From Dehalococcoidia bacterium (GTDB taxonomy: Bacteria > Chloroflexota > Dehalococcoidia > UBA2979): a stretch of DNA of 64,000 nt. Position 1 is the first letter of the stretch. Each line of letters begins with the position of its first letter. A program made the position numbers and the translations under genes. This document shows positions 4,390 to 63,445 of the stretch, piece after piece. The notes beneath the pieces are model-generated. The model did not search any database, was not told where the DNA came from, and saw nothing but the letters and a program-made list of their open reading frames with translations. The stretch is from NCBI GenBank assembly GCA_965219085.1, contig OZ244720.1, forward strand, positions 2,144,001 to 2,208,000, in the 5' to 3' direction.

Positions 4390-4415
4390 CGCGCAACGTG
4401 AAGCGTTCGGGCAGC
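4390..4415 (-). repeat. Displaced fragment of nrtR coding sequence (copy of 5225-5250)
   Basis: cgcgcaacgtgaagcgttcgggcagc vs cgcgcagcgtgaagcgctcgggcagc: 24/26 identical, both differences synonymous (LPERFTLR). Confidence 0.7.
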
Positions 4416-4455
4416 GAGTTCGAGTCTGGTAGACTTAGCCCACTGGATCGGACTA

Positions 4456-4710
4456 ATGCAGGAGACGGCCGTGCGCGTAGTCAATATGCATGAAGCCAAG
4501 TCGCAACTCTCCAAGCTCGTACAGGCCGCAGTCGACGGCGAGCCCTTCGTCATCGCGCGCGCCGGCGAGCCGCTCGTCAAGGTCGTCGCACTTGATGCCC
4601 CGACGACCGGCGGACGCCGAACCGGGTTCCTGCGCGGCTTCCTGGTGCCGGACGACTTCGACCGGATGGGCGCCGACGAGATCCAGGCGACGTTCGAGGG
4701 GCGCTCGTGA
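4456..4710 (+). CDS. Phd/YefM family antitoxin (true start may be a few codons downstream)
   Basis: VNMHEAKSQLSKLV...GEPFVIARAGEPLVKV; overlaps the PIN toxin start (GTGA). Confidence 0.85.
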   Translation: MQETAVRVVNMHEAKSQLSKLVQAAVDGEPFVIARAGEPLVKVVALDAPTTGGRRTGFLRGFLVPDDFDRMGADEIQATFEGRS

Positions 4711-5021
4711 GGCTTCTGCTCGACACGCACCTCCTGCTCTGGGCTGCCGCCGCGTCGCTATGGGAGGTCGCCATCAAGTTCGGGCTGACGCGCGACGACT
4801 TCACCGTCGACCCGCGACTGCTGCGCCGGGCGCTGCTGGAGCACGGGTATACCGAATTGGCCGTCACGGGCGCTCACGCCGTGGCCGTCGACCTGCTGCC
4901 GCCCATTCACGGCGACCCGTTCGACCGGCTCCTCGTCGCGCAGGCACAGATCGAGGCGATCACGCTGCTCACTGCGGATGGAATCGTCGGGCGCTATCCG
5001 GGTCCTATCCGAATGGTCTGA
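4707..5021 (+). pseudogene. vapC: VapC/PIN toxin with an apparent in-frame internal deletion
   Basis: LLLDTHLLLWAAA is joined directly to ASLWEVAIK; HGDPFDRLLVAQA and LLTAD present; only 104 aa. Confidence 0.65.
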
Positions 5022-5048
5022 ACGCCGGGCCCCCGGCGGAGCCACTCC

Positions 5049-5720
5049 CTACAGGAAGACCGGCTCGCGCGTGGTGAAGCGGTAGAGCCGCGCCGGCCGG
5101 TGCGCGCCCTCGCGACGCACCTCGTCGGTGGGCTCGATCATGACGTTGCCGAGCATGCGCTTGCGGAAGTTGCGACGGTCGAGGCCCTCCCCGCCGAGGA
5201 TCGCCTCGTACGTCGCCTGCAGCTCGCGCAGCGTGAAGCGCTCGGGCAGCAGCCCGTAGGCGATGTTCGTGTAGTCCAGCTTCGCGCGGACGCGCTCGAC
5301 GGCCTGTTCGATCACGCGGTTGTTCTCGAACGCCAGTCGCGGCAGCTCGCCGACGGGGCGCCAGTCGGGACGCCACGCGTCGCCCGGCTCGGCGCGCAGC
5401 CGCACGGCGCTCGCGTCGACGAGGGCGAAGTAGGCGATCGCCACGCTCGGCTGGGTGGGGTCGAGCCCGGACTGCGTGAAGAGCTGCTCGAGGTACACGT
5501 CGCTTGCGCCGGTCTCCTCGACGAGCTTGGCCGCCGCGGCCGCGTCGAGCGACTGGCTGCCATCCCAGTGCCCGCCGGGGAGCGCCCACGTGCCCGCCTC
5601 GGGATCCGCGTCGCGGTGCACGAGCAGCACCTGCAGGCGACCCTCGATGATCGCGAAGATCACGACGATCGTGGCCACGGCCGGCGTGTCGGGCGGCGTC
5701 GGATGCTGGGGGGCGGGCAC
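5049..5720 (-). CDS. nrtR: NrtR (Nudix + winged-helix) NAD-metabolism regulator
   Basis: WALPGG with degenerate Nudix box, YLEQLFT, FTLRELQ..YE.IL, DRRNFRKR, RPARLY; GTG start at 5720 chosen because the longer ORF overlaps miaB. Confidence 0.9.
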   Translation of the reverse strand: MPAPQHPTPPDTPAVATIVVIFAIIEGRLQVLLVHRDADPEAGTWALPGGHWDGSQSLDAAAAAKLVEETGASDVYLEQLFTQSGLDPTQPSVAIAYFALVDASAVRLRAEPGDAWRPDWRPVGELPRLAFENNRVIEQAVERVRAKLDYTNIAYGLLPERFTLRELQATYEAILGGEGLDRRNFRKRMLGNVMIEPTDEVRREGAHRPARLYRFTTREPVFL

Positions 5721-5734
5721 GGTGCGTCTACCCG

Positions 5735-7081
5735 CTAGAGCACCGTGAGCGGCACGTCGCCGAAGCGGTGCGCCGCCGCGCGGCTGCCGCGCAGCGACCA
5801 CGGCGTGGCCTCGGCGATGGCCACGTCGACGAGCGAGCCGACGAGGTCCTGCCCCGCGAAGTGCACGAGCTGCCCGCCGCGCGCGCGGCCCGTGGCGACC
5901 ATCACGCCGTCGCGGTCCTGCTCGCGCTCCACGAGCACATCGAGGGTGCGGCCGATGAGGCGGTCGTGCTTCGCGGCGGCACTCCGGGCGTGGATCGCCT
6001 CGACGACCTTGAGGCGCTCCTTCTTGACCTCGCGCGGCACGTCGTCCTCGAGCTTGCGGTACGCGTACGTGCCCGGCCGCGGCGAGTAGGCAGCGGCGTG
6101 GATCACGTCGAACTGCAGCCGCTCGAGCAGGTCGACGGTGCTCTGGAACTCGCCCGCGGTCTCGCCGGGGCAGCCGACGATCACGTCCGTGGCGATCGAG
6201 GCCTCCGGCATGCGCGAGCGAATGCGATCAAGGCGCTCCTCGTACTCGGCGACGGTGTAGCCGCGCCGCATCCGCTCGAGCATGCGGTCGTCGCCGGACT
6301 GCACGGGGATGTTGAAGTGCTCGCAGACCTTCGGCAGGTCCGCGACGGCGTCGATGATGCGGTCGGTCATGTCCTTCGGGTACGAGGTCAGGAAGCGCAC
6401 GCGCTCGATGCCGTCGACCTCCTCGATGCCCTCGAACAGCGTGGCGAGGTCGGCGTCGGCGTCGAGGTCGTGGCCGTAGGCCTCGACGGTCTGCCCGAGC
6501 AGGGTCACCTCGCGCACGCCGAGCATGGCAAGGTGCCGCACCTCGGCGAGCACGTCGCCCGGCTCGCGCGACTCCTCGCGGCCCCGGCGCAGCGGGACGA
6601 TGCAGTAGGTGCAGAACTTGTCGCAGCCGTGGATCACGGGCACGAACGCGGTCGGGCCCGTCGGCGCGCCGTAGGTCTCGACCCAGAACTCGCCCTCGGA
6701 GACGTCACGCTCGCCGCCGCCGCGTTCCAGCGCCGCGTCGAGCACGGGCTCGAACTGCTGGGGCCGCGCCCACACGTCGACCCACGGGAAGCGTCGTTCG
6801 AGGGCTGCGCGTTGCGAGTCGCCCTCGGGGCCGACCATGCAGCCCATGACGGCGATCTGCAGCTCCTCGCCGCGGTCGCGGCGCTGCCGGAGGTGGTGGA
6901 GCCGCCCGTAGGCGCGGTCCTCGGCGTGCTGGCGCACGGAGCACGTGTTGACGACGGCGAGGTCGGCGCGGTCGGGGTCGTCGGCGGCGGCGTACCCGAT
7001 CTTCTCGAGCCCGGCGATGAGCTTGAGGGAGTCGGCCTGGTTCATCTGGCAGCCGAGGGTCCACACATGGTAGGTCGGCAC
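5735..7081 (-). CDS. miaB: tRNA-i6A37 methylthiotransferase
   Basis: TLGCQMN, NTCSVR, GCDKFCTYC radical-SAM motif, C-terminal TRAM domain; GTG start at 7081. Confidence 0.92.
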   Translation of the reverse strand: MPTYHVWTLGCQMNQADSLKLIAGLEKIGYAAADDPDRADLAVVNTCSVRQHAEDRAYGRLHHLRQRRDRGEELQIAVMGCMVGPEGDSQRAALERRFPWVDVWARPQQFEPVLDAALERGGGERDVSEGEFWVETYGAPTGPTAFVPVIHGCDKFCTYCIVPLRRGREESREPGDVLAEVRHLAMLGVREVTLLGQTVEAYGHDLDADADLATLFEGIEEVDGIERVRFLTSYPKDMTDRIIDAVADLPKVCEHFNIPVQSGDDRMLERMRRGYTVAEYEERLDRIRSRMPEASIATDVIVGCPGETAGEFQSTVDLLERLQFDVIHAAAYSPRPGTYAYRKLEDDVPREVKKERLKVVEAIHARSAAAKHDRLIGRTLDVLVEREQDRDGVMVATGRARGGQLVHFAGQDLVGSLVDVAIAEATPWSLRGSRAAAHRFGDVPLTVL

Positions 7082-7125
7082 GGGTCGCCCCTCGATTGGC
7101 CCTCGATGGTAGTGCGGGTTGTTGC

Positions 7126-7214: not shown

Positions 7215-7267
7215 GGAGAGATCGTAGGGGGGTGGGGGTCAGGCGGGCAAGCGGGGCAGTCGTGCGG

Positions 7268-13481: not shown

Positions 13482-13644
13482 GTGGGGCTCCCGATGCGGG
13501 CGTGACAGGTGGGCGCCTCGCGGATCGGAGGCGGCGCGGCGGATGGTAGCACCTCGGGCGGGGTGCTCAAGGCGAGGTTCGACGGATAAAAAGAAGAGGG
13601 GTACACTAATCCAGTAATGCAAAGGAAGGGACAGGTGGGCGGCT

Positions 13645-14004
13645 ATGGCCCGGTACGCGGACCTCGACGCCGTGGCGGACGATGTGTACGAGCGTGGCGT
13701 CGTAACGATTTCCGCGAGGGAGATCCGCAACGCTTACGGCGCCGAACGGCTCGGCGTGAACGTACGTTCGGCCATTCGTCAGGAACTCAGGGCGAGGGGT
13801 CTGACCCTCTACCCGCCACGAATTCCCGATAGTCAAGGTGACATGGTCAGAATTTATCAGAGCGATGGCCCCGTTGGAGATCTGATTCAAGCCGTCATGC
13901 GTCCGGATCCGTCGAACGACTTTCTCCTGCGGGAAGCCGCTCTGGGTGAAGCGCGGGTGCTCTTGGAGACGATCCGGAACCTGCTGGAGGAGCACGATGA
14001 ATAG
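13645..14004 (+). CDS. Hypothetical protein (accessory, lower GC)
   Basis: Globular-looking 119-aa ORF with a purine-rich upstream region; lies in the insert between sucC and the DUF885 gene. Confidence 0.6.
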   Translation: MARYADLDAVADDVYERGVVTISAREIRNAYGAERLGVNVRSAIRQELRARGLTLYPPRIPDSQGDMVRIYQSDGPVGDLIQAVMRPDPSNDFLLREAALGEARVLLETIRNLLEEHDE

Positions 14005-14248
14005 ACATGAGCAGCATCGAAGGGTACGGAGGAAGGACCGCCTCGACGACCTTGGGACCGCTGGCCGCGCTCAGCGGCTGATGTGCCGCGGTGGCCTTGT
14101 GATTGATGCAGGTGTATCGATTTGTGGCGCCTACATCATGCAGTTCGCTATAGGTGTTGCAGCTGTAGTCGTCGGAGGGCTCATTCTCATCCATCTGTCC
14201 GGCTGACTTCATGCGACTGCCTGGCGCGCGCGTGGGCAGGGGTTCGGC

Positions 14249-14464: not shown

Positions 14465-14468
14465 GGCG

Positions 14469-14547
14469 CCCCATCGGCCCGAGGTCGAACGCCCGGGCGT
14501 GGAACGGCTTCAGGTCGAACGAGGCGCCGTCGCGGCGGCGGGCGGCC
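14469..14547 (-). repeat. Displaced copy of the DUF885 gene 3' region (copy of 15294-15372)
   Basis: 79 bp with 6 mismatches, 4 synonymous; encodes AARRRDGASFDLKPFHARAFDLGPMG. Confidence 0.9.
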
Positions 14548-14575: not shown

Positions 14576-15007
14576 TTAGCGCAGGCCTGGCTCGTGGGTG
14601 AAGGGGTTCATCACGGTGACGGTGTCAATGCGCTGCCCGTCGTTGAGATCCTCGGTCAGGAGATAGGTGCATCGGGCCCTGCGGGCGGCCGCCACGATCA
14701 GCGCATCCCAGTGGGAGAGTTGGGCGGATTCCGTGATCTCGAACGCCTGCTGAATGAGGGCTGCGTCGATGGGCTGCGGATCCCATGAGATGAGGTCGTC
14801 GATGTCGGCGCGGGCCTCGACGTGCGACAGACCGGGGGTGAGCCGGCGGGTCACCGTGACGTAGTACTCGTTGAGCACCTGGGCGCTGATACGGCCCTCA
14901 CCGGACGCCCACAGATGGCCCATCCATGCCAGCGCACGCTCCTGCTTCTCGGCGTGATCGGGGTCGCGCGCGTACACGAGGACATTGGTGTCGACGAAGA
15001 CGCTCAC
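14576..15007 (-). CDS. vapC: PIN-domain (VapC) toxin
   Basis: VFVDTNVLVY, QVLNE, SHWDALIVAAA, LLTEDL, NPF. Confidence 0.9.
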   Translation of the reverse strand: MSVFVDTNVLVYARDPDHAEKQERALAWMGHLWASGEGRISAQVLNEYYVTVTRRLTPGLSHVEARADIDDLISWDPQPIDAALIQQAFEITESAQLSHWDALIVAAARRARCTYLLTEDLNDGQRIDTVTVMNPFTHEPGLR

Positions 15008-15231
15008 CGCTCGTGCAGTTCATCACGTGATGGGTAGGGTTCGCCACCGCTCAGTGAAGCGGGCCGACGTCCAAGGTAGGAACGACGAGCCTCTTCGTAG
15101 CGGTCGCCGCGCTGCATGTGCTCCCGTAGCAAACGCCCGACGAAGCGTGAGACGCTCGTGTCGTGCCGGGCCGCCTCGATGCGCGCCCAGCGGGCCGTCT
15201 CATCGTCAAGGGTGATGGTTACGTTTCGCAC
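15004..15231 (-). CDS. Ribbon-helix-helix (CopG-like) antitoxin
   Basis: MRNVTITLDDETARWARIEAARHDTSVSRFV...PSRDELHER; overlaps the toxin start. Confidence 0.85.
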   Translation of the reverse strand: MRNVTITLDDETARWARIEAARHDTSVSRFVGRLLREHMQRGDRYEEARRSYLGRRPASLSGGEPYPSRDELHER

Positions 15232-15260: not shown

Positions 15261-16934
15261 CTACCCGCCCAGCTCCCGCCGCATCTGATCCAACCCCATC
15301 GGCCCCAGGTCGAACGCCTGCGCGTGGAACGCCTTGAGGTCGAACGAGGCGCCGTCGCGGCGGCGGGCCGCCTCGCGCGCGTCGAGCCAGGCGCGCTCGC
15401 CTACCTTGTAGCTGATCGCCTGCCCCGGCACGCCGAGGTAGCGATCGACCTCGCTCGCCATGAAGTCGGCCGGGAAGTGGGCGCGCTGCAGCACGAACTC
15501 CAGGCCCAGCTCCGGCGTCCACGTCTCCCCCGGGTGGAAGTGGTCGTGCTCCGCGATCGGCAGCTCGAGGTGCATGCCGATGTCCACCACCACGCGGGCG
15601 CAACGCAGCGCCTGCGCGCGCAGCATCCCGAGGTAGTAGTCGGGGTTCTCGAGGTAGCCGAGCTCGCCCATGAGCCGCTCGGCGTAGAGGCCCCAGCCCT
15701 CCGAGTAGCCGGACGAGCCGCCCATCAGCCGCTGCCAGCGCGAGAGCGCCTCGCGCAGGTAGACGGTCATGCCGATCTGCAGGTGGTGGCCGGGGACGCC
15801 CTCGTGGTACGCGATCGAGACCTCGCCCCACAGCGGGAAGCGCGTCTTGCCGCCCGTCGGGTACCACGTGCGGCCCGGCCGGCTGAAGTCCTCCGAGGGG
15901 CCCGTGTAGTACATCGCGAGCGTGCCGCCGGGCGGCGCGATCAGCGCCTCGATGCGCTGCACCTCCGCGGGCAGGTCGAAGTGCGTGCCGTTGAGCTCGG
16001 CGATGGTCGTCTCCTGGAGCGACTGCATCCACTCGCGGAACGCGTCGACGCCGTCGATGGCGCGCTCCGGGTCGGTCTCGAGGAGTTCCTTGGCGCCCTC
16101 AACGCCGACGCCGGGGGCGATGCGCTCCGCGGTCGCCGCCATCTCGGCCTCGATGCGGTGCAGCTCGGACCAGCCCCACGCGTACGTCTCGTCGAGGTCC
16201 GGCGAGGCGCCGGTGTAGACCTGCACGCCCAGCGCGTAGCGGTCGCGCCCGACGGGATCATGCGGCTCGGCAGCGGGCACGTAGGTCTCCTCGAGGTAAC
16301 GGCCGAAGCCGGCGAACGCCTCGTTGGCGGCGGCAGCGCCGGCGCGCAGCTCGGCGGTCAGCCCATCGCTCACCACGTCCGACGCCTCGAAGTCCGCCAC
16401 GAGCCCGTCGAAGAACGAGGGCGCCCCGCTCGCCCCGCTCCACGTCGCCGCCTGCATCGCGCACGCGGCAGCCTGGCGCTGCGTGCCCGGCGTGCCGCGC
16501 TCGATGCTGGCATCGAGGGTGCGGCGGTAGCCCGCCATCGCCGCGGGCATGGCGGCGAGGCGGGCGGCGATGTTGCTCCAGTGCTCCTCGGTCTCGCGCG
16601 GCATGAGGTCGAAGACGCGCCGCAGCGACTGCGACGGGCTCGCGAGCACGTTGATCGAGCGGTAGTGCTGCCCCGCCGCGTCGAGCTCGAGCGAGAGCCG
16701 CAGTCGCTCCGCCATCGCGTCGCGGGCTACACGGTCGCGGTCGTCCTCGACGGTCGCGGCCTCGAGCGCGGCGAGGGTGTCGCGTTCGAGCTGCGTGCGG
16801 GCCTCGTGGCCGTCGGGCGAGAAGTCGGTCAGCTCGTGCTCGTGGCCGGGGATGCCCATGCTGGTGGCGGCGTTGGGCGAGAGCGCGGCGGAGCGCACGA
16901 CGTAGTCATCGGCGAGGTCGTAGATGGCGGACAT
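15261..16934 (-). CDS. DUF885 family protein (putative zinc peptidase fold)
   Basis: YHEGVPGHHLQ, YSEGWGLYAE, RVVVDIGMH, EVDRY...PGQAISYKVGE; ATG at 16934. Confidence 0.9.
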   Translation of the reverse strand: MSAIYDLADDYVVRSAALSPNAATSMGIPGHEHELTDFSPDGHEARTQLERDTLAALEAATVEDDRDRVARDAMAERLRLSLELDAAGQHYRSINVLASPSQSLRRVFDLMPRETEEHWSNIAARLAAMPAAMAGYRRTLDASIERGTPGTQRQAAACAMQAATWSGASGAPSFFDGLVADFEASDVVSDGLTAELRAGAAAANEAFAGFGRYLEETYVPAAEPHDPVGRDRYALGVQVYTGASPDLDETYAWGWSELHRIEAEMAATAERIAPGVGVEGAKELLETDPERAIDGVDAFREWMQSLQETTIAELNGTHFDLPAEVQRIEALIAPPGGTLAMYYTGPSEDFSRPGRTWYPTGGKTRFPLWGEVSIAYHEGVPGHHLQIGMTVYLREALSRWQRLMGGSSGYSEGWGLYAERLMGELGYLENPDYYLGMLRAQALRCARVVVDIGMHLELPIAEHDHFHPGETWTPELGLEFVLQRAHFPADFMASEVDRYLGVPGQAISYKVGERAWLDAREAARRRDGASFDLKAFHAQAFDLGPMGLDQMRRELGG

Positions 16935-54323: not shown

Positions 54324-54499
54324 GGTCGCGCAGCGTACGGGCCCGCGCGTGAGACGACAATGCACTGGCCGTGATGGGCCCGCACACGCGGCGCTGTGAC
54401 CCCTCGTGGCAGGCGGTACACTTGCCCGGTGACGAGCCCGCGAGGCTGCTCGTGGGCCATCCGAAGCGGCGGTCCCCTACCCCACAGCGAGGAGACGCG

Positions 54500-55519
54500 A
54501 TGACCACCGGACCTGCGCAGCAACCACAGCAACCACAGGTCGTCGACGCCCCCAACTTCGACGGCGGGGAATGGCTGCAGGGCGGCCCGGTCAACGTCCG
54601 GGGTCTCGGCAAGCCGCTGCTCGTCGAGTTCTGGGACTACACCTCCGTCAACTGCCTGCGCACCATCCCGTACCTCGCTGAGTGGCACCGGCGCTACGAG
54701 CAGCACGGGCTCACCATCGTTGGCGTGCACACGCCTGAGTTCGACTTCGCGCGCAACCCCGAGCGCGTGCGCCAGGCGATCGCTGACCTCGAGGTGCCGT
54801 ACCCGGTGGTGCTCGACTCGCAGTTCGAGATCTGGCGGGCGTACGCGAACCGCTTCTGGCCCTCCAAGTACTTCGTCGACGGGCAGGGCAAGGTCCGCGC
54901 ACAGCACGCCGGCGAGGGCGCCTACGACGAGTCGGAGCAGGTGATCCAGGCGCTGCTGCGCGAGCAGGAGGGGTTCGACGCCGAGCTGCCGGACCTCATG
55001 GAGCCGCTGCGCCCCGAGGACGGCCCCGGCGCGGTCTCCTACCGCGTTACGCCGGAGCTGTACTGCGGCTACTCGCGCGGCGTCATCGGCAACCTCGGCG
55101 GACCGCAGCCGGACCGCCCGCACCGCTACGCCGACCCCGGCAAGCACGTCGAGGGCACGCTGTACCTCGACGGCCACTGGATGGTCTCCGGAGAGAACGC
55201 GGCGCGGCCATTCGGAGCACAGGGCGCGAGCCGTATGACGCTCACCTACATGGCCGCCGACGTGAACCTCGTGCTGCACCCGCCGATCATGGGCGGCGTG
55301 GGCGAGGCGCGCGTGCTGCTCGACGGCGAGCCCGTCGCGGGTGACGCGGCCGGCGAGGACGTCGAGGGCGGCGCGATCAACGTCGACAGGCCCCGCATGT
55401 ACCGCCTCGTGCGAGGCATCGACGTGGAGCGGCACACGGTCACGGTGGAGACCGAGTCGGACGGGCTCGCCGCGTTCGCCTTCACGTTCACGTCGTGCGT
55501 CGCGCCCCCGCCGGAGTAG
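54500..55519 (+). CDS. Redoxin (DipZ C-terminal-like) with SxxC in place of CxxC
   Basis: EFWDYTSVNCLRT, GVHTPEF, WP..Y, GEG.Y, TPELY, AFTF. Confidence 0.85.
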   Translation: MTTGPAQQPQQPQVVDAPNFDGGEWLQGGPVNVRGLGKPLLVEFWDYTSVNCLRTIPYLAEWHRRYEQHGLTIVGVHTPEFDFARNPERVRQAIADLEVPYPVVLDSQFEIWRAYANRFWPSKYFVDGQGKVRAQHAGEGAYDESEQVIQALLREQEGFDAELPDLMEPLRPEDGPGAVSYRVTPELYCGYSRGVIGNLGGPQPDRPHRYADPGKHVEGTLYLDGHWMVSGENAARPFGAQGASRMTLTYMAADVNLVLHPPIMGGVGEARVLLDGEPVAGDAAGEDVEGGAINVDRPRMYRLVRGIDVERHTVTVETESDGLAAFAFTFTSCVAPPPE

Positions 55520-55551
55520 CGCGGGGCACGGGGCGATCCAGGCTGCGCCAC

Positions 55552-55783
55552 ATGGGTGAGATAACCATCCCTTTGGACGACCAGACCGCCCGCTGGGCGC
55601 CGGGCCGAGGCGGCCCGGCGGCGTATCAGCGTGTCGCGATTCGTGGCCGGTCTGCTCCGCGACGAGATGGCTCGTGACGACCGTTACGAGCAGGCTCAAC
55701 AGTCATACCTCACACAGTCGCCCGGGGATCTGAGCTCTGGATCGAGGGCATACCCATCCCGCGATGAGTTGCACCATTGGTGA
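55552..55783 (+). pseudogene. Frameshifted RHH antitoxin homologous to 15004-15231
   Basis: MGEITIPLDDQTARWA / AEAARRRISVSRFVAGLLR...YPSRDELH with a frameshift. Confidence 0.85.
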
Positions 55784-55784
55784 C

Positions 55785-55915
55785 GTGAAGGTCTCGTTTA
55801 GACCGCCCAGCGCGCAGGCTGCACCTTCCTGCTGACAGAAGACCTCAGTGACGGCCAGCGTGTGAGCGCCGTCACCGTGATCAACCCCTTCACCCACGAT
55901 CCACCCTCCAGCTGA
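55785..55915 (+). pseudogene. PIN toxin remnant with a large internal deletion (homologous to 14576-15007)
   Basis: VKV.. joined to TAQRAGCTFLLTEDLSDGQRVSAVTVINPFTHD. Confidence 0.85.
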
Positions 55916-55929
55916 GAGCGGCTTGTCGA

Positions 55930-55967
55930 ACGTTCACATCGTGCGTCGCGCCGCCGCCGCGGTAGCG
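55930..55967 (+). repeat. Displaced copy of the redoxin gene 3' end (copy of 55484-55521)
   Basis: 38 bp with 4 mismatches; TFTSCVAPPPR* vs TFTSCVAPPPE*. Confidence 0.85.
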
Positions 55968-56100
55968 GTGGGGACGAGCGGCGAGGCGCCAACTGGTACG
56001 TCATAACCTCGCGCGCTGCTACGCTGCCTGCCGTCCGGCCTGCGTGGCCGGTTCGCAACGCCCGCCGGGCACGGCGCCGCGGGCGCCCGAGGGTGCGATC

Positions 56101-56535
56101 GTGGTCGAGCAGCGTCGCCTCAACGTCTTTTTCGACGTCGACTACACGCTGATCATGGCCGACGGGCGGCTGCGCAATCACACCGAGGAGGTGTTCCAGC
56201 GCCTCAAGGATGCCGGCCACTCCATCTACATCTGGTCCGGTGTTGGCATTCGCCGCTTCGACATGCGCCTCCACGGCCTCGACGGCTACGTCGACGACTA
56301 CTTCGTGAAGCCGCTCTACCGCTACCGCGAACGGCTCGATGAGATGGACGTCACGGTCGTCCCGGACTACGTGATCGACGACCACCCGCAGGTCGTGCGC
56401 GCCTTTGACGCCGGCTACCACATCCCCGACATCGCCCGCCGCGACGACCGCGAGCTGCTCAACGTGCTCGAGGAGATCGAGGCGCTCGCCGACGGCCGCG
56501 CGGCCGGCGGCGACGGGGCGAGCGAGGACGCATAG
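56101..56535 (+). CDS. Small HAD-superfamily-like protein (start uncertain, 56044 or 56101)
   Basis: FFDVDYTL (DxD), IWSG, K, VIDD motifs. Confidence 0.7.
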   Translation: MVEQRRLNVFFDVDYTLIMADGRLRNHTEEVFQRLKDAGHSIYIWSGVGIRRFDMRLHGLDGYVDDYFVKPLYRYRERLDEMDVTVVPDYVIDDHPQVVRAFDAGYHIPDIARRDDRELLNVLEEIEALADGRAAGGDGASEDA

Positions 56536-58036: not shown

Positions 58037-60040
58037 GTGATGCGCGCACGTCTGGCGGTCCTGGTGGTCGCGGGGTTGATCGCGGTCCTGGGCGTGACGG
58101 CCATCACCGCCTCCGGTGCGGGCCACGAGACCGAGGTGCGCGTCACCGCGCAGCGCCTCGCCGACGGCCGGACCGAGTTCGCGCTGCAGCAGCGCGAGGC
58201 GGACGGGGAGTGGGGTGAGCGGCTGCTGACGCGGGCACGGTTCTTCCCCGCCACGGCCACGGTCGGGCGCTGGCTGTCGAGCACGCCGCTCACGGTGCGC
58301 GCGCCGGGCGCCGGCGACGATGCCGAAGGCGCCGAGGTGCGCATCACGGCGCAACGCCTCGCCGACGATCGCATCGAGTTCGCGCTGCAAGAGCGCGAGG
58401 CGGACGGGGAGTGGGGTGAGCGGCTGCTGACGCGGGCGCGGTTCTTCCCCGCCACGGTCACGGTCGGGCGCTGGCTGTCGAGCACGCCGTTGACGGTGAG
58501 TCTGCCGGAGCCAGCGGCATCGCCGGACACGGCCGAAGACGGGGGGAGCGTGGCGTCGGACCGGGCGGCGCTGGTCGCGCTCTACAACGCCACGGAAGGC
58601 GCAAGCTGGTGGACCAGCACGAACTGGCTGAGTGACAGGCCCCTCGATGAGTGGCACGGCGTCACCACGAACAGCGACGGCCGTGTCGCTGGGCTGGACC
58701 TCTCGCTCAACCTGTTGACGGGGCCGATCCCGGCCGAGTTGGGTGGCCTTAGCAAGCTCGTATCGCTGTACCTCGACAACAACGAGTTGACGGGGCCGAT
58801 CCCGGCCTGGCTGGGCGACCTCACCAATCTGCAAGTGCTGTGGCTGTCCGGCAACGAGCTGACAGGGTGCGTGCCCTTCGGTTTGCAAGATGCATGGCCG
58901 AATGCCCTTTTGGCACTCGACCTGCCTGACTGCGGCGAGGACCGGGCGGCGCTAGTCGCGTTCTACGAGGCCACAGACGGCACAAACTGGACCCACGACT
59001 GGAACTGGCTGAGCGACAGGCCCCTCGATGAGTGGCACGGCGTCACCACGAACAGCGACGGCCGTGTCGCTGAGTTGTGGCTGTTGAGCAACGAGTTGAC
59101 AGGTCCGATCCCGGCCGCGCTGGGCGACCTCACCAACCTGGAGTTGCTGGATCTCTGGGGCAACGAGTTGACGGGGCCGATCCCGGCCGAGTTGGGTGAT
59201 CTCTCCAACCTGCACACGCTGTCCCTCGCGTTCAACGAGTTGACGGGGCCGATCCCGGCCGAGCTGGGCGACCTGAGCAATCTGGAACGGCTGGACCTCC
59301 GGTTCAACGAGTTGACGGGTCCGATCCCGGCCGCGCTGGGCGACCTCACCAACCTGGAACGGCTGATCCTCTGGGACAACCGGTTGACGGGGCCGATCCC
59401 GGCTGAGCTGGGCGACCTCTTCAACCTGGAGGCACTGGTCCTCCGGTCCAACGAGTTGACGGGGCCGATCCCGGCCGAGCTGGGTGACCTCACCAACCTG
59501 GAATCGCTGGACCTCCAGTCCAACCAGTTGACGGGGCCGATCCCGGCCGAGTTGCGTGGCCTCAGCAACCTGGTACGGCTGTACCTCGAGAACAACGAGT
59601 TGACGGGGCCGATCCCGGCCGAGCTTGGCGACCTCGCCAACCTGGCAAGGCTGGACCTCTCAGGCAACCAGTTGACGGGGCCGATCCCGGCCGAGCTGGG
59701 TAACCTCACCAACCTGATTCGGCTGATCCTCGGGTTGAACGAGTTGACGGGGCTGATTCCGGCCTGGCTGGGCGACCTCACCAACCTGACTCGGCTGAGC
59801 CTCTCGGGCAACGGCTTGAGGGGGCCGATCCCCGCCGAGCTTGGTGGCCTTACGAACCTGTCTTGGCTGTCCCTCAGCGACAACCAGTTGACGGGGCCGG
59901 TCCCGGCCGAGCTGGGCGCCCTCACCGACCTGCAAGCGCTGTGGCTGTCGGGCAACGAGTTGACAGGGTGTGTGCCCGTCGGCTTGCGGGATGTAGCGTC
60001 GAACGATCTCGGGGCCCTCGACCTGCCCGACTGCGGCTAG
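58037..60040 (+). CDS. Secreted plant-type leucine-rich-repeat protein
   Basis: Signal peptide, duplicated ~65-aa N-domain, two capped LRR blocks (3 and 13 repeats of 24 aa, LxLxxNxLTGPIPAELGxLxNL). Confidence 0.93.
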   Translation: MMRARLAVLVVAGLIAVLGVTAITASGAGHETEVRVTAQRLADGRTEFALQQREADGEWGERLLTRARFFPATATVGRWLSSTPLTVRAPGAGDDAEGAEVRITAQRLADDRIEFALQEREADGEWGERLLTRARFFPATVTVGRWLSSTPLTVSLPEPAASPDTAEDGGSVASDRAALVALYNATEGASWWTSTNWLSDRPLDEWHGVTTNSDGRVAGLDLSLNLLTGPIPAELGGLSKLVSLYLDNNELTGPIPAWLGDLTNLQVLWLSGNELTGCVPFGLQDAWPNALLALDLPDCGEDRAALVAFYEATDGTNWTHDWNWLSDRPLDEWHGVTTNSDGRVAELWLLSNELTGPIPAALGDLTNLELLDLWGNELTGPIPAELGDLSNLHTLSLAFNELTGPIPAELGDLSNLERLDLRFNELTGPIPAALGDLTNLERLILWDNRLTGPIPAELGDLFNLEALVLRSNELTGPIPAELGDLTNLESLDLQSNQLTGPIPAELRGLSNLVRLYLENNELTGPIPAELGDLANLARLDLSGNQLTGPIPAELGNLTNLIRLILGLNELTGLIPAWLGDLTNLTRLSLSGNGLRGPIPAELGGLTNLSWLSLSDNQLTGPVPAELGALTDLQALWLSGNELTGCVPVGLRDVASNDLGALDLPDCG

Positions 60041-60230
60041 ACCGTATGAGCCCGTCTCAGCAGGCCACCGGGGAGTGCCGGTGAATGCGCTGCCCGGTCT
60101 GAACGGAGGGCATTGAGGCCGGGCGGAAGGGTGCAGGCCGAGGGGCAGAGACAGTAGCTGGGTACACCCCCTCTTGATGCACTATGCGCGGCCCGTGGCC
60201 CGGTCGCCCACCGCCGCCTACGATCGCCGC

Positions 60231-61100
60231 ATGCGCCAGGTCTCGAGGATCGCCGCCGGCTGGTCGTCGCGAAGAGCCCTCGCGAGGGTTGTCGTGTTCG
60301 CGCTGTTGGCGGCTGCGTGTGGTGGGGGCTCCTCCGATTCCGGCGATGTCGTCATCGAGCTCATCACGCCGACCGCCACACCGTCCGCCCTGCCAACCGT
60401 GCCAGTCAGCGAAACGGCGGCGGTCGTGCCCTCCGCCGCGGCGACCGTCACCCCGACGGCGACGCCCACCTCTCAGCCGACCACCACCCCGACCCCGGTC
60501 GTCGTCGAGGTCACCGCGCCCGCGTCGCCGACGCCGGTGGCAACGGCGATGGCGACCGACACCGCAGTCGCGACGCCGACGCCCGCTCCCACGCCCACCG
60601 CGACCGCACCGCCGCCGCCCGTTCCCGCCCCGGCCCCCACTCCGACGCCGACTCCGCCCCCAACACCCACACCACCCCCGGTCGAGCCGACGGCGACGAC
60701 CGGCGCCCTCGCGGTCGAGGAACTGCCGGTGATCGAGTTCGTGCGCGCCGACGGGTCCGTGGTGGCGTTGCCGGTGGAGGCGCCGCCGCTCTCCGAGTAC
60801 GGCATCGGGCTGTCGGGCCGCTACGAGCTCGGCGAGCGCGGCATGCTGTTCTACTACGCGAACGACGACCGCTCGCGCCCGTTCTGGATGCGCAACACGC
60901 ACATCGACCTCGATATCGCCTTCGCCACGTCGGACTTCGTGATCATCGCGATCCTTCGCATGACGGCGGATACCGAGAACCTCCACCGGCCTGACCGCGG
61001 CTACATGTACGCTGTCGAAGCCGCTGCCGGCTGGTACGCCGAGCACGGCATCGCAGCCGGAGACACCATGCGGCTGACGTTCGAGTTGCCCGAGGAGTGA
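60231..61100 (+). CDS. DUF192-domain lipoprotein with long Pro/Thr linker
   Basis: LAAAC lipobox; GMLF, FWMRNTHIDLDIAF, AVE..AGW. Confidence 0.85.
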   Translation: MRQVSRIAAGWSSRRALARVVVFALLAAACGGGSSDSGDVVIELITPTATPSALPTVPVSETAAVVPSAAATVTPTATPTSQPTTTPTPVVVEVTAPASPTPVATAMATDTAVATPTPAPTPTATAPPPPVPAPAPTPTPTPPPTPTPPPVEPTATTGALAVEELPVIEFVRADGSVVALPVEAPPLSEYGIGLSGRYELGERGMLFYYANDDRSRPFWMRNTHIDLDIAFATSDFVIIAILRMTADTENLHRPDRGYMYAVEAAAGWYAEHGIAAGDTMRLTFELPEE

Positions 61101-61168
61101 GCGGCGTTCATCGTGCCTGCAACGGGGCGTCGTATACTGCCGTCCGCGCATCAGGATGAGGAGCAGCG

Positions 61169-61837
61169 ATGACCGGCGATCTGACCTTCGACCACAACGG
61201 CCAGCACGTGGAGGGCTACCTGTCCGAACCCGAGGGCACACCGCGCGCGGGCGTGGTCGTGATCCAGGAGTGGTGGGGCCTCAACGATGACATCAAGGGC
61301 ATCGCGGACCGCTTCGCCGCCCAGGGCTACCTCGCGTTCGCGCCCGACCTCTACGACGGCGTGGTCTCGACCGAGCCCGACGAGGCGCTGAAGCTGGCGA
61401 TGGCGCTGGAGCAGGACATCGCGAGCCAGCTCGTCGACGCCGCCCTGAACTGGCTCAAGGCCGAGCACGGCGTCGAGAAGACGGGCTGCATCGGGTTCTG
61501 CATGGGCGGCGGCCTGACACTCGCCGCGGCGATGCGCCCGACGTCGAACGTGGACGCGGTGCACGTCTTCTACGGCGGCGGGATGCCCTCGGTGGAGGAG
61601 CTCTCGACGATCACGGCCCCCGTCATGGGGTCGTACGGCGCGGAGGACGAGAGCATTCCGGCCGCCGACGTCGACATGCTGCGCAGCACCCTTGAGGGCC
61701 GCGGCCTGGCGACGGACGTGAAGCTCTACGACGGCGCGGGCCACTCGTTCTTCAACGCGGGCGAGGCGCACCACGCCTCCTCGGCGGCGGACGCCTGGGA
61801 GCGCACGCTCCAGTGGTTCGGCGAGCACCTGGGGTAG
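61169..61837 (+). CDS. Dienelactone hydrolase family protein
   Basis: IQEWWGL, APDLY, GFCMGG, AGHSFFN. Confidence 0.92.
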   Translation: MTGDLTFDHNGQHVEGYLSEPEGTPRAGVVVIQEWWGLNDDIKGIADRFAAQGYLAFAPDLYDGVVSTEPDEALKLAMALEQDIASQLVDAALNWLKAEHGVEKTGCIGFCMGGGLTLAAAMRPTSNVDAVHVFYGGGMPSVEELSTITAPVMGSYGAEDESIPAADVDMLRSTLEGRGLATDVKLYDGAGHSFFNAGEAHHASSAADAWERTLQWFGEHLG

Positions 61838-61872
61838 CGCGGGCCTGAACGCCGCCGGCGGGGCGTCGTAGC

Positions 61873-61924
61873 ACGGCGTCCCGCTAGTACCACTCGCGCT
61901 CGATCACCGTCGAGGCGTGGCGTG
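61873..61924 (-). repeat. Displaced copy of the GAF gene 3' end (copy of 62910-62961)
   Basis: 52 bp with 2 mismatches, both synonymous; RHASTVIEREWY* plus downstream bases. Confidence 0.92.
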
Positions 61925-61993
61925 TGCCCACGCGCCACACGTCCCGTGCTTATTACAAATGAGAACTAGCCATAGCAGTATGGCCGAGGTAGT

Positions 61994-62305
61994 GTGCGGG
62001 TGGCAGATGGTCGCGTTGGACGGAAGCAGGTCACGACGCGCACGAAGGCAACATTCCGGCTGCGGGGCCGAGTCACGCCCGGGATGTTCTCGCACGAGCG
62101 CGTGTTCAGCGTCGAAGGCGCCGACGGGCAGACGATCTACATGATCGTCCCTGACGCCGACATCGAGGAACGGGATGGAGAGCCAACGACACAGGTCGTG
62201 GTTGTGGGGCGCTCCGGGGAGTTCTCACTCGTGAGTGTCCCAGGCGAACCAGTGGAGACGGGCCAGACGGTGTGGGTGCCCGAGCGGGATCTCATCCCCG
62301 CGTGA
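61994..62305 (+). CDS. Hypothetical protein overlapping the dcd start (start uncertain)
   Basis: VTPGMFSHER...VSVPGEP; its stop overlaps the GTG of the dcd pseudogene. Confidence 0.6.
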   Translation: MRVADGRVGRKQVTTRTKATFRLRGRVTPGMFSHERVFSVEGADGQTIYMIVPDADIEERDGEPTTQVVVVGRSGEFSLVSVPGEPVETGQTVWVPERDLIPA

Positions 62306-62910
62306 TTCTGAGCAACAACGCGATCTTCGCCGCGCTCGACGGCCGCCTCATCATGTAACCGGAGCCCGAACCCCGGTCGGACGTGGGGTCGCCGTTCGGC
62401 ACGTCGGCTATCGATCTGCGCCTCGGGCCCGTGATCGCGAGGCCGAGGGGCGCACCCCACGCCGTGGTAGACCTTGGGCGGTCAGGGAAGCGTTACCGAC
62501 ACACTCGCTGCCTTCACCGACGAGTTCGAGATCGGCGACGGCGGCTACGTGCTGGAGCCTGGGCCTGAGAACCTCGTGCTTGGTCACACCCTGGAAACGG
62601 TGCGACTGCCGCTGCCCGAGCATCTGGATGAGCGCGCGGAGGGGAAGCCGGTGCTCGCCGCCCGTGTCGAGGGGAAGAGCGCGCGCGCTTCGGCCTGCTG
62701 GTGCACTTCACTGCGCCGACCATCCATGCTGGTTGGGCAGGGCGTCACGATCGAGATGATGTGCCTCGGACGGTATCCGCTGCGGCTCTACTCGGGCCTC
62801 CCGATCTGCCAGTTGATCCTCGAGGAAGTCCGGGGGCGGCCCACGGCTGCCGCAAGCCAATTCCAGGGTCCCAATTCCAGGGTCAGAGTCGACCCACCGG
62901 CGCCTCGTGA
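62302..62910 (+). pseudogene. dcd: dCTP deaminase (trimeric dUTPase fold), disrupted
   Basis: MILSN, SAIDLRL, VLGHTLE, ARVEGKS, VHFTAPTIHAG, ICQLI, SQFQGQ across frames; early TAA and several frameshifts. Confidence 0.85.
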
Positions 62911-62920
62911 CGGCGTCCCG

Positions 62921-63445
62921 CTAGTACCACTCTCGCTCGATCACCGTCGACGCGTGGCGTGCGAGGGTGATGAGGATCCGTTCGTCGTTGTCGCCGAACG
63001 GCTTGCCGTCCTCGCGGTCGGTGACGTAGAGCGAGCCGCGGACGTGTCCCGCGCTCCAGATCGGCACGCCGATCAGCGCCCGCATCTCCGGGTGGTGCGG
63101 CGGGAAGCCGAACGCGCGCGGCGCGGTCTGGACGTTGTCGAAGCGCACAGGACGCCCGTCGGCGCGCAGCGAGCTGAGCGGGCCGTGGGCCTGGGGCGGC
63201 GTCCTGAGCCCCCGCAGGTCCTCCTTCGACAGCCCCGAGGTGACGAAGCCCTGGGTCATGTCGTGCTCGTCGGTGACGGCGAGGGCGCCGTACTTCGCGT
63301 GCGTCATCTGGCGCGCGAGGTCGACCACGAGCTGCAGCGACTCATCGGGGCGGCGGCGTTCCGGGAGCCGCCGCACGCCGCGCGCGAGGGCGCGCAGGGC
63401 TCGCCGTTCCGGGTCGCGTCGCAGTAGCCGGTCGGTCAGCTTCAT
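62921..63445 (-). CDS. Stand-alone GAF-domain protein
   Basis: AKYGALAV, FVTSGL, GFPPHHPEMR.LIGVPI, LYVTDR..F...DE. Confidence 0.85.
   Translation of the reverse strand: MKLTDRLLRRDPERRALRALARGVRRLPERRRPDESLQLVVDLARQMTHAKYGALAVTDEHDMTQGFVTSGLSKEDLRGLRTPPQAHGPLSSLRADGRPVRFDNVQTAPRAFGFPPHHPEMRALIGVPIWSAGHVRGSLYVTDREDGKPFGDNDERILITLARHASTVIEREWY

What the first reader, a model, noticed from the sequence alone, without database searches (positions are those of the whole stretch)
4390..62961. Recurrent integrase-free cassettes inserted by gene-tail replacement (four sites)
Seen: the same layout occurs four times, namely intact host gene, then a small cassette right after its stop, then a second copy of that gene's 3' coding sequence. 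The pairs are nrtR (4390-4415/5225-5250), DUF885 (14469-14547/15294-15372), redoxin (55484-55521/55930-55967) and GAF (61873-61924/62910-62961). By manual count 10 of 14 mismatches between copies are synonymous, which indicates the two tails evolved as coding sequence in separate lineages rather than by local duplication and decay. The cargo is TA pairs or a dCTP deaminase pair; no integrase, terminal inverted repeat or shared att motif is visible. Inference: donor DNA carrying a homologous gene tail plus cargo integrates while restoring the gene. This could be homology-facilitated illegitimate recombination after transformation, Campbell-type integration of small circles, or an unknown trans-acting system that uses protein-gene tails as tRNA tails are used by islands.
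Basis: partly seen in the sequence, partly recalled or inferred. Interest (0 to 1): 0.85.

Follow-up and report, generated by a model that had tools for sequence, protein, structure and literature searches.

The report
Gene-tail duplications flanking inserted toxin-antitoxin cassettes
Small toxin-antitoxin and defence gene cassettes were recombined into the ends of ordinary genes, each leaving a spare dead copy of the gene's tail; this scar is already known from restriction-modification genes but is unusually frequent in this genome.

Summary
All four repeat pairs exist at the stated coordinates (24/26, 73/79, 34/38, 50/52). Three (DUF885, redoxin, GAF) are secure tail duplications bracketing 0.4-1 kb cassettes. 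The nrtR pair is weak: 26 nt, 176 nt from the stop. Relatives show empty sites, and public contigs from two studies carry the duplications, so this is not an assembly artefact.

The pattern is genome-wide. About 23 tail-type and 10 head-type cassettes remain after my hand screening. At 35 nt or more, 30 genes have such a tail pair in direct orientation and 0 in inverted orientation. Cargo is mostly TA or defence-like. No integrase, terminal inverted repeat or shared motif was found.

In 20 pairs, 37 of 51 coding mismatches are synonymous. At 11 sites with relatives, 26 of 55 mismatches set two alleles against each other that both occur in relatives' functional genes. Orphan copies are no more degraded than functional ones (15 versus 13 unique states).

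This matches "insertion with long target duplication" (Nobusato 2000; Furuta 2010), known for restriction-modification systems and of unknown mechanism. Most likely host recombination inserted cargo next to an allelic gene end, and later recombination shuffled it. Earlier notes of this scan report the same kind of scar in at least seven other genomes. It is a new member of a known kind.

The parts
15261..16934 (-). Host gene DUF885, intact (site 2)
   Evidence: Pfam DUF885 E=7.7e-146. 92.7-94.2% identical over its last 740 nt to six relatives.
15294..15372 (.). Site 2 proximal (functional) tail copy
   Evidence: 73/79 identical to 14469-14547. 4 synonymous and 2 non-synonymous mismatches.
14576..15231 (-). 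Site 2 cargo: VapC-type PIN toxin (14576-15007) and small antitoxin (15004-15231)
   Evidence: PIN E=2.4e-11; antitoxin only a weak DUF6364 hit. Same cassette at this locus in G016, G008 and G003 at 80-82% identity; absent in G018, G007 and G014.
14469..14547 (.). Site 2 orphan tail copy, trimmed at both ends
   Evidence: G016 keeps a 159-nt orphan starting at the stop, in the same downstream context as the empty-site genomes. G008 and G003 have lost the orphan.
54500..55519 (+). Host gene: thioredoxin-like / AhpC-TSA ('redoxin'), intact (site 3)
   Evidence: Thioredoxin_10 E=2.7e-25, AhpC-TSA, Redoxin.
55484..55521 (.). Site 3 proximal tail copy including the stop codon
   Evidence: 34/38 identical to 55930-55967.
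55522..55929 (+). Site 3 cargo: decayed VapBC remnant (frameshifted antitoxin, last ~35 codons of a PIN toxin)
   Evidence: Three-frame reading. 69-80% DNA similarity to the site-2 cassette. The stretches tested gave no Pfam hit.
55930..55967 (.). Site 3 orphan tail copy, joined to the native downstream flank
   Evidence: Six relatives (G014, G018, G007, G003, G016, G008) have one tail followed directly by this flank, i.e. an empty site.
62921..63610 (-). Host gene with GAF domain, intact (site 4)
   Evidence: GAF_2 E=1e-17.
62910..62961 (.). Site 4 proximal tail copy (stop codon plus 11 nt downstream)
   Evidence: 50/52 identical to 61873-61924.
61925..62909 (+). Site 4 cargo: small ORF 61994-62305 and a dCTP-deaminase-like pseudogene (about 62330-62900)
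   Evidence: DCD family E=2.4e-8 on one open stretch; frameshifts and an in-frame stop. The same cargo is in G018, G003 and G008. G014, G007 and G016 hold different DNA of about 770 nt between the same repeats; read in G014, it is an antitoxin-plus-toxin pair that I call VapBC-type from the ORF translations.
61873..61924 (.). Site 4 orphan tail copy
   Evidence: Present in all six close relatives, well kept in G003 and G018, decayed in G007, G014, G016 and G008.
5049..5801 (-). Host gene nrtR (Nudix plus NrtR winged helix), intact (site 1)
   Evidence: NrtR_WHD E=6.7e-25, NUDIX E=1.6e-11.
5225..5250 (.). Site 1 internal nrtR segment (176-201 nt from the stop) that matches 4390-4415
   Evidence: 24/26 identical; encodes the same 8 residues.
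4456..5021 (+). Site 1 cargo: Phd/YefM antitoxin (4456-4710) and N-terminally short PIN (4707-5021)
   Evidence: PhdYeFM E=5e-8; PIN E=4.7e-4 over profile positions 34-114 only. G018 has this pair with 72 extra nt.
4390..4415 (.). Site 1 possible relic of an orphan nrtR tail (weak)
   Evidence: Only 26 nt; the flanks do not match nrtR. Both mismatches are orphan-unique. In the 24-29 nt bin there are 20 direct and 6 inverted matches.
3705..4295 (-). Neighbouring HigA (HTH) / HigB cassette without flanking repeats, part of the same variable spot
   Evidence: HTH_3 and HigB-like_toxin hits. Its presence and its order relative to the Phd-PIN pair differ among relatives.

Best explanation
[quoted passage not shown] The gene keeps a complete end, and a second, now useless copy of that end is stranded beyond the cassette.

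No element-encoded recombinase is involved. I infer that the host's own recombination did it. Incoming DNA carried the cassette next to an allelic copy of the same gene end. It paired with the chromosome at that conserved coding stretch. It then entered either by a single crossover of a circularised fragment (Campbell-type) or by one homologous plus one illegitimate joint (homology-facilitated illegitimate recombination).

Afterwards three processes act:
- Homologous recombination with relatives shuffles alleles and cargo at these hot spots.
- Recombination between the two copies can delete the cassette cleanly, giving empty sites.
- Orphans and cargo decay by deletion and frameshift.

Addictive (TA) or useful (defence) cargo is what survives between such unstable repeats.

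Shown here: the duplications, the empty sites, the genome-wide excess, the cargo types, the lack of recombinase, inverted repeats and motif, and the allele-like differences.

Inferred: the route of entry, and the retention bias.
For: - The repeats are real and in the expected geometry.
- Empty sites in relatives:
  - Site 3: 6 of 6 close relatives.
  - Site 2: 3 of 6.
  - L096: G007 and G008 checked by alignment, four more by overlapping matches.
  - L080: 3 of 5.
  - L065 and L071: 4 of 5 each.
  - L057: 2 of 5.
  - L092: 1 of 5.
- The orphan sits in the native downstream context.
- Genome-wide, at 35 nt or more: 30 tail-outward direct pairs and 26 head-outward direct pairs, against 1 inverted pair in all four classes together.
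- At 5-300 kb only short (30-40 nt) background matches occur, direct and inverted about equally.
- Cargo: PIN, MazE, Phd, MNT/HepT, DUF433/DUF5615, Fic, NYN, DUF3800, SMC/AAA, DCD.
- Only 2 Phage_integrase and 8 Resolvase hits in 3.3 Mb, none inside a cassette.
- No terminal inverted repeats (mean best score 6.08 versus 6.48 in controls) and no shared 9-mer (at most 4 of 25 repeats).
- Allele-like mismatches: 37 of 51 synonymous and a symmetric GC/AT direction.
- At 39 of 55 mismatches the orphan's base occurs in a relative's functional tail, against 6.2 +/- 2.3 expected for random decay (0 of 2000 simulations reach 39). 26 of the 55 have both states natural.
- Ku, ComEC and DprA genes are present.
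- Contigs of two studies carry the structures.
- Literature precedent with the same anatomy and no mobility genes: PMC2853133 (passages).
Against: - No donor configuration, circle junction or excision joint was seen. The contigs laid cannot show rare forms.
- The youngest pairs are (nearly) identical, including non-coding bases unlike any relative (L096). That fits duplication made in place as well as a same-population donor.
- Later homologous recombination alone could produce the allele pattern.
- My null spreads substitutions evenly and so understates parallel change at silent sites.
- The 13 proximal-unique states are also expected under in-place duplication.
- Most TA loci have no flanking repeats: 4 of the 41 PIN hits lie in repeat-flanked cassettes. 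None of 14 homologous cassettes in relatives has a flanking repeat longer than 33 nt, apart from one 77-nt match at 81% identity.
- Other inserts at the same sites lack duplications.
- Gene calls are my own crude ones, and the 'clean' set was picked by hand.
Confidence: 0.5

Rival explanations
1. The target duplication was made in place. A staggered break, or a replication or repair error, during capture of foreign DNA copied 30-200 nt of the resident gene end. The two copies started identical. The allele-like differences came later, when homologous recombination with relatives replaced the functional tail or refreshed the orphan.
For: - The youngest pairs are 76/77, 39/39 and 28/28 identical.
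- Both L096 copies share 22 non-coding nt unlike any relative.
- Both site-3 copies lack a codon that all six relatives have.
- Highly identical pairs extend 6-39 nt past the stop, while diverged pairs end at the stop. That is expected if non-coding parts decay fastest.
- Orphans are trimmed by deletion.
Against: - Orphan copies carry no more unique changes than the constrained functional copies (15 versus 13), and 26 of 55 mismatches are between two natural alleles.
- Mismatches are 37/51 synonymous, with no A/T drift in the orphan.
- At L092 the functional tail is the odd one out.
- These points require frequent later recombination acting on stretches of 40-120 nt.
Confidence: 0.25
2. The cassettes are decayed remnants of ordinary integrase-bearing islands or prophages that integrate into gene 3' ends and restore them (attL/attR relics, CIME-like). 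TA genes are the last survivors because deleting them is lethal.
For: - Repeats that end at the stop codon are typical of elements that rebuild a gene end.
- TA cargo resists deletion (established knowledge, not tested here).
- Cargo at sites 3 and 4 is decayed.
- Deletions do eat into the flanks.
Against: - About 33 different gene ends would need many integrase specificities, yet the genome has 2 tyrosine recombinase genes.
- None of the tail pairs at 5-300 kb brackets a large island, with one candidate at 29 kb in a repeat-rich adhesin region.
- None of the relatives examined at the same sites showed an integrase-sized insert. Inserts seen were 0.7-2 kb and held methylases, a hydrolase and a transposase-like ORF.
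- Repeat lengths vary from 28 to about 190 nt, with no common core.
- Head-of-gene duplications also occur.
Confidence: 0.12
3. An unknown dedicated, trans-acting system recognises protein-gene tails and inserts cassettes there, as island integrases use tRNA gene ends.
For: The pattern is recurrent and enriched at gene ends. Several cassettes lie close together in this window.
Against: - No shared sequence or inverted repeat at cassette ends or in the repeats.
- Junction positions and repeat lengths vary, even for the same cassette at the same site in two genomes.
- Many cassettes are dead.
- In a compact genome any 30-200 nt target near an intergenic spacer overlaps a gene end, and only insertions that leave the gene whole survive. 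This explains the gene-end association without targeting (inference).
Confidence: 0.05
4. The pairs are chance similarities or assembly chimeras.
For: The nrtR pair is short. In the 24-29 nt class there are 6 inverted matches against 20 direct.
Against: - For 35 nt or more: 30 direct versus 0 inverted.
- Logan contigs of runs X3 and X4 match 54400-56284 and 60031-63110 without a difference. A second study's run X7 covers 55626-56148 and 61837-62932.
- Relatives carry the same duplications at sites 2 and 4.
Confidence: 0.03

Closest known systems
Insertion with long target duplication (Nobusato, Uchiyama, Ohashi, Kobayashi 2000, Gene 259:99, seen only as a cited reference; Furuta, Abe, Kobayashi 2010, PMC2853133, passages read; Mruk and Kobayashi 2014, PMC3874152, passage read)
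   Same: - A few kb of accessory genes is inserted with a long, variable direct duplication of the target (30 to about 420 bp in their tables).
- There are no mobility genes.
- Related genomes have empty sites.
- The repeats are not always identical.
- Some of their repeats overlap the 3' end of a gene.
- The cargo is an addiction-type module.
- The mechanism is unknown.
   Different: - Their cases are restriction-modification systems, mostly in naturally competent Proteobacteria, a few per genome.
- Here the cargo is type II TA pairs and assorted defence-like genes in a 70% GC genome.
- Here there are about 33 cassettes in 3.3 Mb.
- The passages I read give identities but no test of whether the two copies are different alleles, which is what searches show here.
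Homology-facilitated illegitimate recombination (de Vries and Wackernagel 2002; Prudhomme et al. 2002; Meier and Wackernagel 2003; seen as references and as described in PMC5361080)
   Same: Foreign DNA enters with one homologous anchor and one illegitimate joint, without any element-encoded enzyme. A conserved coding stretch is the natural anchor.
   Different: As described there, it is rare and usually replaces recipient DNA. A duplication of the anchor is not its usual product, as far as I recall. No donor or microhomology joint could be examined here.
Orphaned 3' regions and immunity genes in Rhs, CDI and T6SS effector loci (Kirchberger et al. 2017, PMC5361080, passages read)
   Same: A new module arrives with its own copy of the conserved gene part and displaces the old end, which stays downstream as an orphan. 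Alleles in one genome trace to different strains.
   Different: There the displaced part is a variable toxin tip with its immunity gene and has a function in competition. Here the displaced part is a short stub of an unrelated housekeeping gene, and the cargo sits between the copies.
Integrative islands and prophages that target and rebuild gene or tRNA 3' ends, and their integrase-less derivatives (CIMEs). Recalled, apart from the tRNA cases discussed in PMC2853133.
   Same: Direct repeats made of the gene's 3' end, with the gene restored by the element's copy.
   Different: Those need a site-specific recombinase and a fixed core. Here there is no integrase in or near the cassettes, no common core, variable junctions, and tens of different target genes.

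Membership tests
Insertion with long target duplication (criteria of Furuta et al. 2010) | A related genome has an empty site with similarity on both sides and a single copy of the repeated stretch | tested here: met
   Site 3: 6 of 6 close relatives. Site 2: G018, G007, G014. Also L096, L080, L065, L071, L057 and L092. Site 4: none of 6 relatives is empty; all carry both copies. Site 1: no relative shows an orphan.
Insertion with long target duplication (criteria of Furuta et al. 2010) | Target duplication longer than 30 bp and insert shorter than 20 kb | tested here: met
   Repeats of 79 (159 in G016), 38 and 52 nt; inserts of 0.4-1.0 kb. Site 1 fails with 26 nt.
Insertion with long target duplication (criteria of Furuta et al. 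2010) | No other mobile element or mobility gene in the insert | tested here: met
   Pfam on the window cargo shows only TA, DCD or no family. No Phage_integrase or Resolvase hit in the window. A few cassettes elsewhere do hold IS copies and were set apart.
Insertion with long target duplication (criteria of Furuta et al. 2010) | Insert holds both R and M genes (their search criterion) | tested here: not met
   Cargo is TA, DCD and other defence-like genes. This is a criterion of their screen rather than of the mechanism.
Site-specific integrative element or its integrase-less relic (CIME) | A tyrosine or serine recombinase in the element or acting on a conserved att core | tested here: not met
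   2 PF00589 and 8 PF00239 hits in the genome, none inside a cassette. No shared core among 25 repeats. Action in trans by an unrecognised enzyme cannot be excluded.
Transposon / IS / MITE | Terminal inverted repeats and a short fixed-length target duplication | tested here: not met
   Best terminal inverted match: mean 6.08, against 6.48 in 100 random intervals. Duplications are 28-190 nt and variable. Most cargo is single-copy in the genome.
Integron gene cassette | IntI integrase, attI and attC sites | tested here: inconclusive
   Only two tyrosine recombinase genes, both far from the window, and no shared end motif. attC models were not run.
Homology-facilitated illegitimate recombination product | One homologous joint and one microhomology joint relative to an identified donor | not testable with these tools
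   No donor sequence was identified. The allele-like difference of the copies is compatible but not specific.

The most novel reading that the evidence does not exclude
The scars mark a general life cycle for small addiction and defence cassettes that needs no recombinase of its own. Recombination between the two gene-end copies loops out a non-replicating circle made of cargo plus one gene end. After transfer, a single RecA crossover at the conserved gene end of a related genome re-inserts it and re-creates the duplication. Conserved ends of core genes would thus serve as portable, sequence-agnostic attachment sites. That would explain 'insertion with long target duplication' in many phyla, and why such cassettes pile up at the same gene ends.
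Probability: 0.2. Interest if true: 0.75.

Novelty: new member of a known kind. Interest (0 to 1): 0.42.

Why it matters
How accessory genes get into chromosomal hot spots that hold no mobile-element genes is still poorly understood. The long-target-duplication scar has had no mechanism since it was described in 2000.

This single closed genome offers about thirty such scars of different ages, with empty sites in relatives. It also shows that the two copies of a gene end are usually different natural alleles rather than a fresh copy and its decayed twin. That points to homology with incoming DNA, or very active recombination afterwards, and away from a transposase-like cut.

It extends the scar from restriction-modification systems to classical toxin-antitoxin and other defence-like genes. 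It also gives a concrete data set for testing the circle-and-crossover model.

For annotation, it warns that short in-frame gene-tail fragments beside TA genes are scars, not genes.

Tried and rejected
1. An AT-rich stretch conserved after the site-4 orphan in all relatives was tested as a possible common cassette end. It occurs once in the genome even with up to 7 substitutions, so it is local, probably a promoter.

2. Large islands: tail or head repeats at 5-300 kb are only short background matches in both orientations.

3. Cassette homologues elsewhere: 14 loci in relatives holding relatives of the site-2 VapBC were scanned for flanking repeats. Only matches of 20-33 nt appeared, plus one of 77 nt at 81% identity. 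So most TA cassettes carry no such scar.

4. Other inserts at the redoxin tail (G006 two methylase-like ORFs, G022 and G023 a hydrolase) have no tail duplication. Inserts at the L096 site in G014 and G016 have none, and G018 has only a 27-nt match.

5. Read laying: no joint that would mark clean excision at sites 3 or 4 is among the 15 joints listed (97 further joints were not shown). All four runs are contigs, which drop rare forms.

6. Polarising single sites by eye (site 3, site 2) was ambiguous. It was replaced by the pooled count.

7. Concerted evolution of the two copies: only single shared derived positions (G016 at site 2, G008 and G003 at site 4). Not enough to conclude.

8. Competence and NHEJ genes (Ku, ComEC, DprA) are present, but ComEC and DprA also ring in most control genomes, so this says little.

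9. Supplementary files of Furuta et al. were not seen. They may list cases with non-RM cargo or allele comparisons.

Full report
WHAT WAS CHECKED

The window is part of a closed 3.31-Mb contig with 69.8% G+C. Earlier notes of this scan call it a sponge-associated Chloroflexota. I did not test that.

Pfam confirms the host genes:
- NrtR (Nudix plus NrtR winged helix).
- DUF885.
- A thioredoxin-like / AhpC-TSA protein.
- A GAF protein.

ANATOMY

At three sites the layout is as described.

- Redoxin site (plus strand). The gene ends at 55519. The repeat covers its last 11 codons, the stop and 2 nt. A 408-nt insert follows, then the second copy, then the native downstream flank.
- GAF site (minus strand). 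The repeat covers 38 coding nt, the stop and 11 nt beyond.
- DUF885 site (minus strand). The present repeat starts 33 nt inside the stop. Relative G016 has the same cassette with a 159-nt orphan that begins at the stop and sits in the same downstream context as the empty-site genomes. So the G000 orphan is a trimmed remnant. G008 and G003 have lost theirs altogether.
- nrtR pair. This one is different and weak. It is 26 nt long and lies 176-201 nt from the stop, with nothing else of the tail duplicated. The spot between the left neighbour and nrtR is nevertheless a variable slot. It holds HigBA and/or Phd-PIN in different orders in different relatives.

CARGO

- Site 2 holds a PIN toxin and a small antitoxin that look intact.
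- Site 1 holds Phd plus a PIN that matches only profile positions 34-114. It is 72 nt shorter than in G018.
- Site 3 is a wreck of a VapBC pair related to that of site 2. The antitoxin is frameshifted and only the toxin's last ~35 codons remain.
- Site 4 holds a 103-codon ORF and a dCTP-deaminase-like gene broken by frameshifts and a stop.
- At site 4 all six close relatives carry both tail copies. Three hold the deaminase cargo. Three hold different DNA of about 770 nt inside the same outermost ~75 and ~40 nt of the old cassette. Read in G014, it is an antitoxin-plus-toxin pair that I call VapBC-type from the ORF translations.

NOT CHANCE, NOT ARTEFACT

I called 2620 genes crudely by codon statistics. 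I then compared every gene end with its surroundings.

Unique, bounded matches within 5 kb, counted as genes:

| Class | Direct | Inverted |
|---|---|---|
| Tail, other copy lying outward, 35 nt or more | 30 | 0 |
| Head, other copy lying outward, 35 nt or more | 26 | 0 |
| All four classes, 35 nt or more | 76 | 1 |
| Tail outward, 24-29 nt | 20 | 6 |

- The 24-29 nt row is why I rate the nrtR pair as uncertain.
- Beyond 5 kb only short background matches occur, in both orientations.
- Public contigs of runs X3 and X4 match 54400-56284 and 60031-63110 without a difference.
- A run of another study (X7) covers 55626-56148 and 61837-62932 with a few differences. The first two runs may be the source sample. 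The third is a slightly different strain.

A GENOME-WIDE HABIT

One search listed 59 candidate cassettes, merged to 56. I screened them by hand. I removed tandem paralogues and set aside IS-bearing ones, using the copy-number check. About 23 tail-type and 10 head-type cassettes remain, mostly single-copy and 0.3-3 kb.

Their cargo includes:
- PIN with MazE, RHH or Phd partners.
- MNT/HepT.
- DUF433/DUF5615.
- Fic, NYN, DUF3800.
- An SMC/AAA ATPase.
- A GNAT protein.
- Several proteins without a family.

Four of the genome's 41 PIN hits lie in such cassettes, so most TA loci carry no scar.

Mobility functions were looked for and not found:
- The genome has 2 Phage_integrase and 8 Resolvase hits, none inside a cassette.
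- Cassette ends have no inverted repeats beyond random intervals (6.08 versus 6.48).
- The 25 repeats share no motif.
- The two tRNA genes of the window are not at the sites.

EMPTY SITES AND HOT SPOTS

Relatives with one tail and no cassette exist for:
- Site 3: 6 of 6 close relatives.
- Site 2: 3 of 6.
- L096, L080, L065, L071, L057 and L092.

The same gene ends also hold other inserts in other lineages, with or without a duplication. At site 2 the cassette is more diverged between genomes (78-86% identity) than the flanking gene (92-96%). It is also absent from G018, the genome whose DUF885 is slightly the closest to G000's. So presence and absence do not follow the gene's relationships.

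ARE THE TWO COPIES ALLELES, OR A COPY AND ITS DECAY?

First test: 20 of the 23 clean tail pairs (three gapped pairs were dropped).
- They give 51 coding mismatches.
- 36 are at third codon positions and 37 are synonymous.
- This is well above what a neutral orphan plus a constrained gene should give. I estimated about 0.49 synonymous (p = 6e-4).
- It is in line with ordinary divergence between orthologues, about 0.77 (p = 0.5). Both reference values are my own rough estimates.
- The orphan shows no drift towards A/T (15 versus 13).

Second test: the 11 sites for which I had relatives' functional tails, 55 mismatches in all.
- In 26 of 55 mismatches both bases occur in relatives.
- 15 are unique to the orphan, 13 are unique to the functional copy, and 1 is unique in both.
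- The orphan's base is seen in a relative at 39 mismatches.
- Evenly spread random substitutions predict 6.2 +/- 2.3, and 0 of 2000 simulations reach 39.
- That null understates parallel silent changes. The 13 proximal-unique cases are also expected under in-place duplication. But the excess of 'both natural' sites and the parity of unique changes are not expected under simple copy-and-decay.

At L092 the functional tail carries 6 unique states in 61 nt, while the orphan is close to G018's allele. That is what a tail brought in from outside would look like.

Against this, the youngest pairs are nearly identical (L096 76/77, L099 39/39). At L096 the two copies share non-coding bases unlike any relative. 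So some events used a donor of the same population, or copied the resident DNA.

WHAT IT IS

The anatomy matches 'insertion with long target duplication', described by the Kobayashi group for restriction-modification systems:
- Inserts without mobility genes.
- Direct target duplications of 30 to about 420 bp.
- Empty sites in related strains.
- Some repeats overlapping gene 3' ends.
- An unknown mechanism, with a proposed virus-like cycle.

Sources: PMC2853133, passages read; PMC3874152, passage read; Nobusato et al. 2000, seen only as a reference.

The 2013 review passage ascribes this mode to RM systems, not to classical TA pairs. My text searches did not turn up a paper applying it to TA cassettes. 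A Microcystis ParDE pair between two 152-bp direct repeats is reported without that reading (PMC7935541).

A related idea is displacement of gene ends by homology-facilitated illegitimate recombination, which leaves orphaned 3' parts. It has been proposed for T6SS, Rhs and CDI loci (PMC5361080).

Earlier notes of this scan report the same kind of scar in at least seven other genomes and name the same literature. Those notes are leads, not evidence.

MOST LIKELY MECHANISM

Host recombination, not an element-encoded enzyme. The conserved coding end of a core gene is the only stretch near an intergenic spacer that stays similar between lineages, so it is where incoming DNA can pair. An insertion there is tolerated only if a whole gene end is kept, which the duplication ensures.

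I favour entry of cargo next to an allelic gene end, either by a single crossover of a circularised fragment or by one homologous and one illegitimate joint. After entry come allele and cargo shuffling by homologous recombination, clean loss by recombination between the copies, and decay. TA and defence cargo would be over-represented because repeats make any insert unstable, and addictive or useful cargo resists loss.

The duplications, empty sites, excess, cargo and allele pattern are shown. The entry route and the retention bias are inferred.

The main rival is duplication in place followed by recombination. It explains the young identical pairs better and the allele pattern worse. Relics of integrase-bearing islands and a dedicated targeting system are poorly supported.

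VERDICT

The kind of event is already described, so this is a new member of a known kind. It is notable for its density, its TA and defence cargo, and the allele evidence, which bears on an unsolved mechanism.

Noticed in passing
window 3705-5048, compared with L108-L115: The spacer between the left neighbour and nrtR is a variable slot. Relatives carry HigBA only, Phd-PIN only, an XRE antitoxin alone, a Phd remnant plus HigBA in the opposite order to G000, or nothing.
   Followed up: partly
window 13578-14468: About 890 nt between the left neighbour and the DUF885 orphan have no match in any of six relatives, which hold about 855 nt of other sequence there. The three ORFs tested gave no Pfam family.
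   Followed up: partly
window 16953-17087: Five tandem copies of a 27-nt unit lie between the DUF885 start and a tRNA-Ser gene at 17132-17221.
   Followed up: no
window 30534-30656: A 24-nt unit is repeated about five to six times in tandem, near-identically, at the end of an ORF called at 29172-30560.
   Followed up: no
window 58037-60040: A 667-codon ORF is built of about a dozen 72-nt (24-residue) repeats. Contig depth in public runs is 10-40 times higher over 58391-59925, so related repeats are common in those samples.
   Followed up: no
window 62485 and 62678 (site 4 cargo): The strain in run X7 differs from the window by a 1-nt deletion and a 2-nt insertion inside the broken dCTP-deaminase-like gene. 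The gene may be broken differently, or be open, in that strain.
   Followed up: no
L104 (G006), positions 623-2127: At the redoxin tail, where G000 has the VapBC remnant, G006 holds two overlapping ORFs whose printed ends look like DNA methyltransferases. That reading is from my own recall, not from a family search. There is no tail duplication.
   Followed up: partly
L143-L145 (G016, G008, G018) at the L092 site: These relatives match the part of G000's cassette that holds the antitoxin gene (77-80% identity) but not the PIN toxin gene. This looks like an orphan antitoxin left after toxin loss.
   Followed up: no
G000:C1:817620-820675 (L058): A 191-nt exact direct repeat at a gene head brackets a 2.7-kb insert with 502- and 249-codon ORFs. 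The pooled Pfam scan found one IstB_IS21 member, and the 502-codon ORF has no family. This is possibly an IS21-type element with an unusually long flanking duplication.
   Followed up: partly
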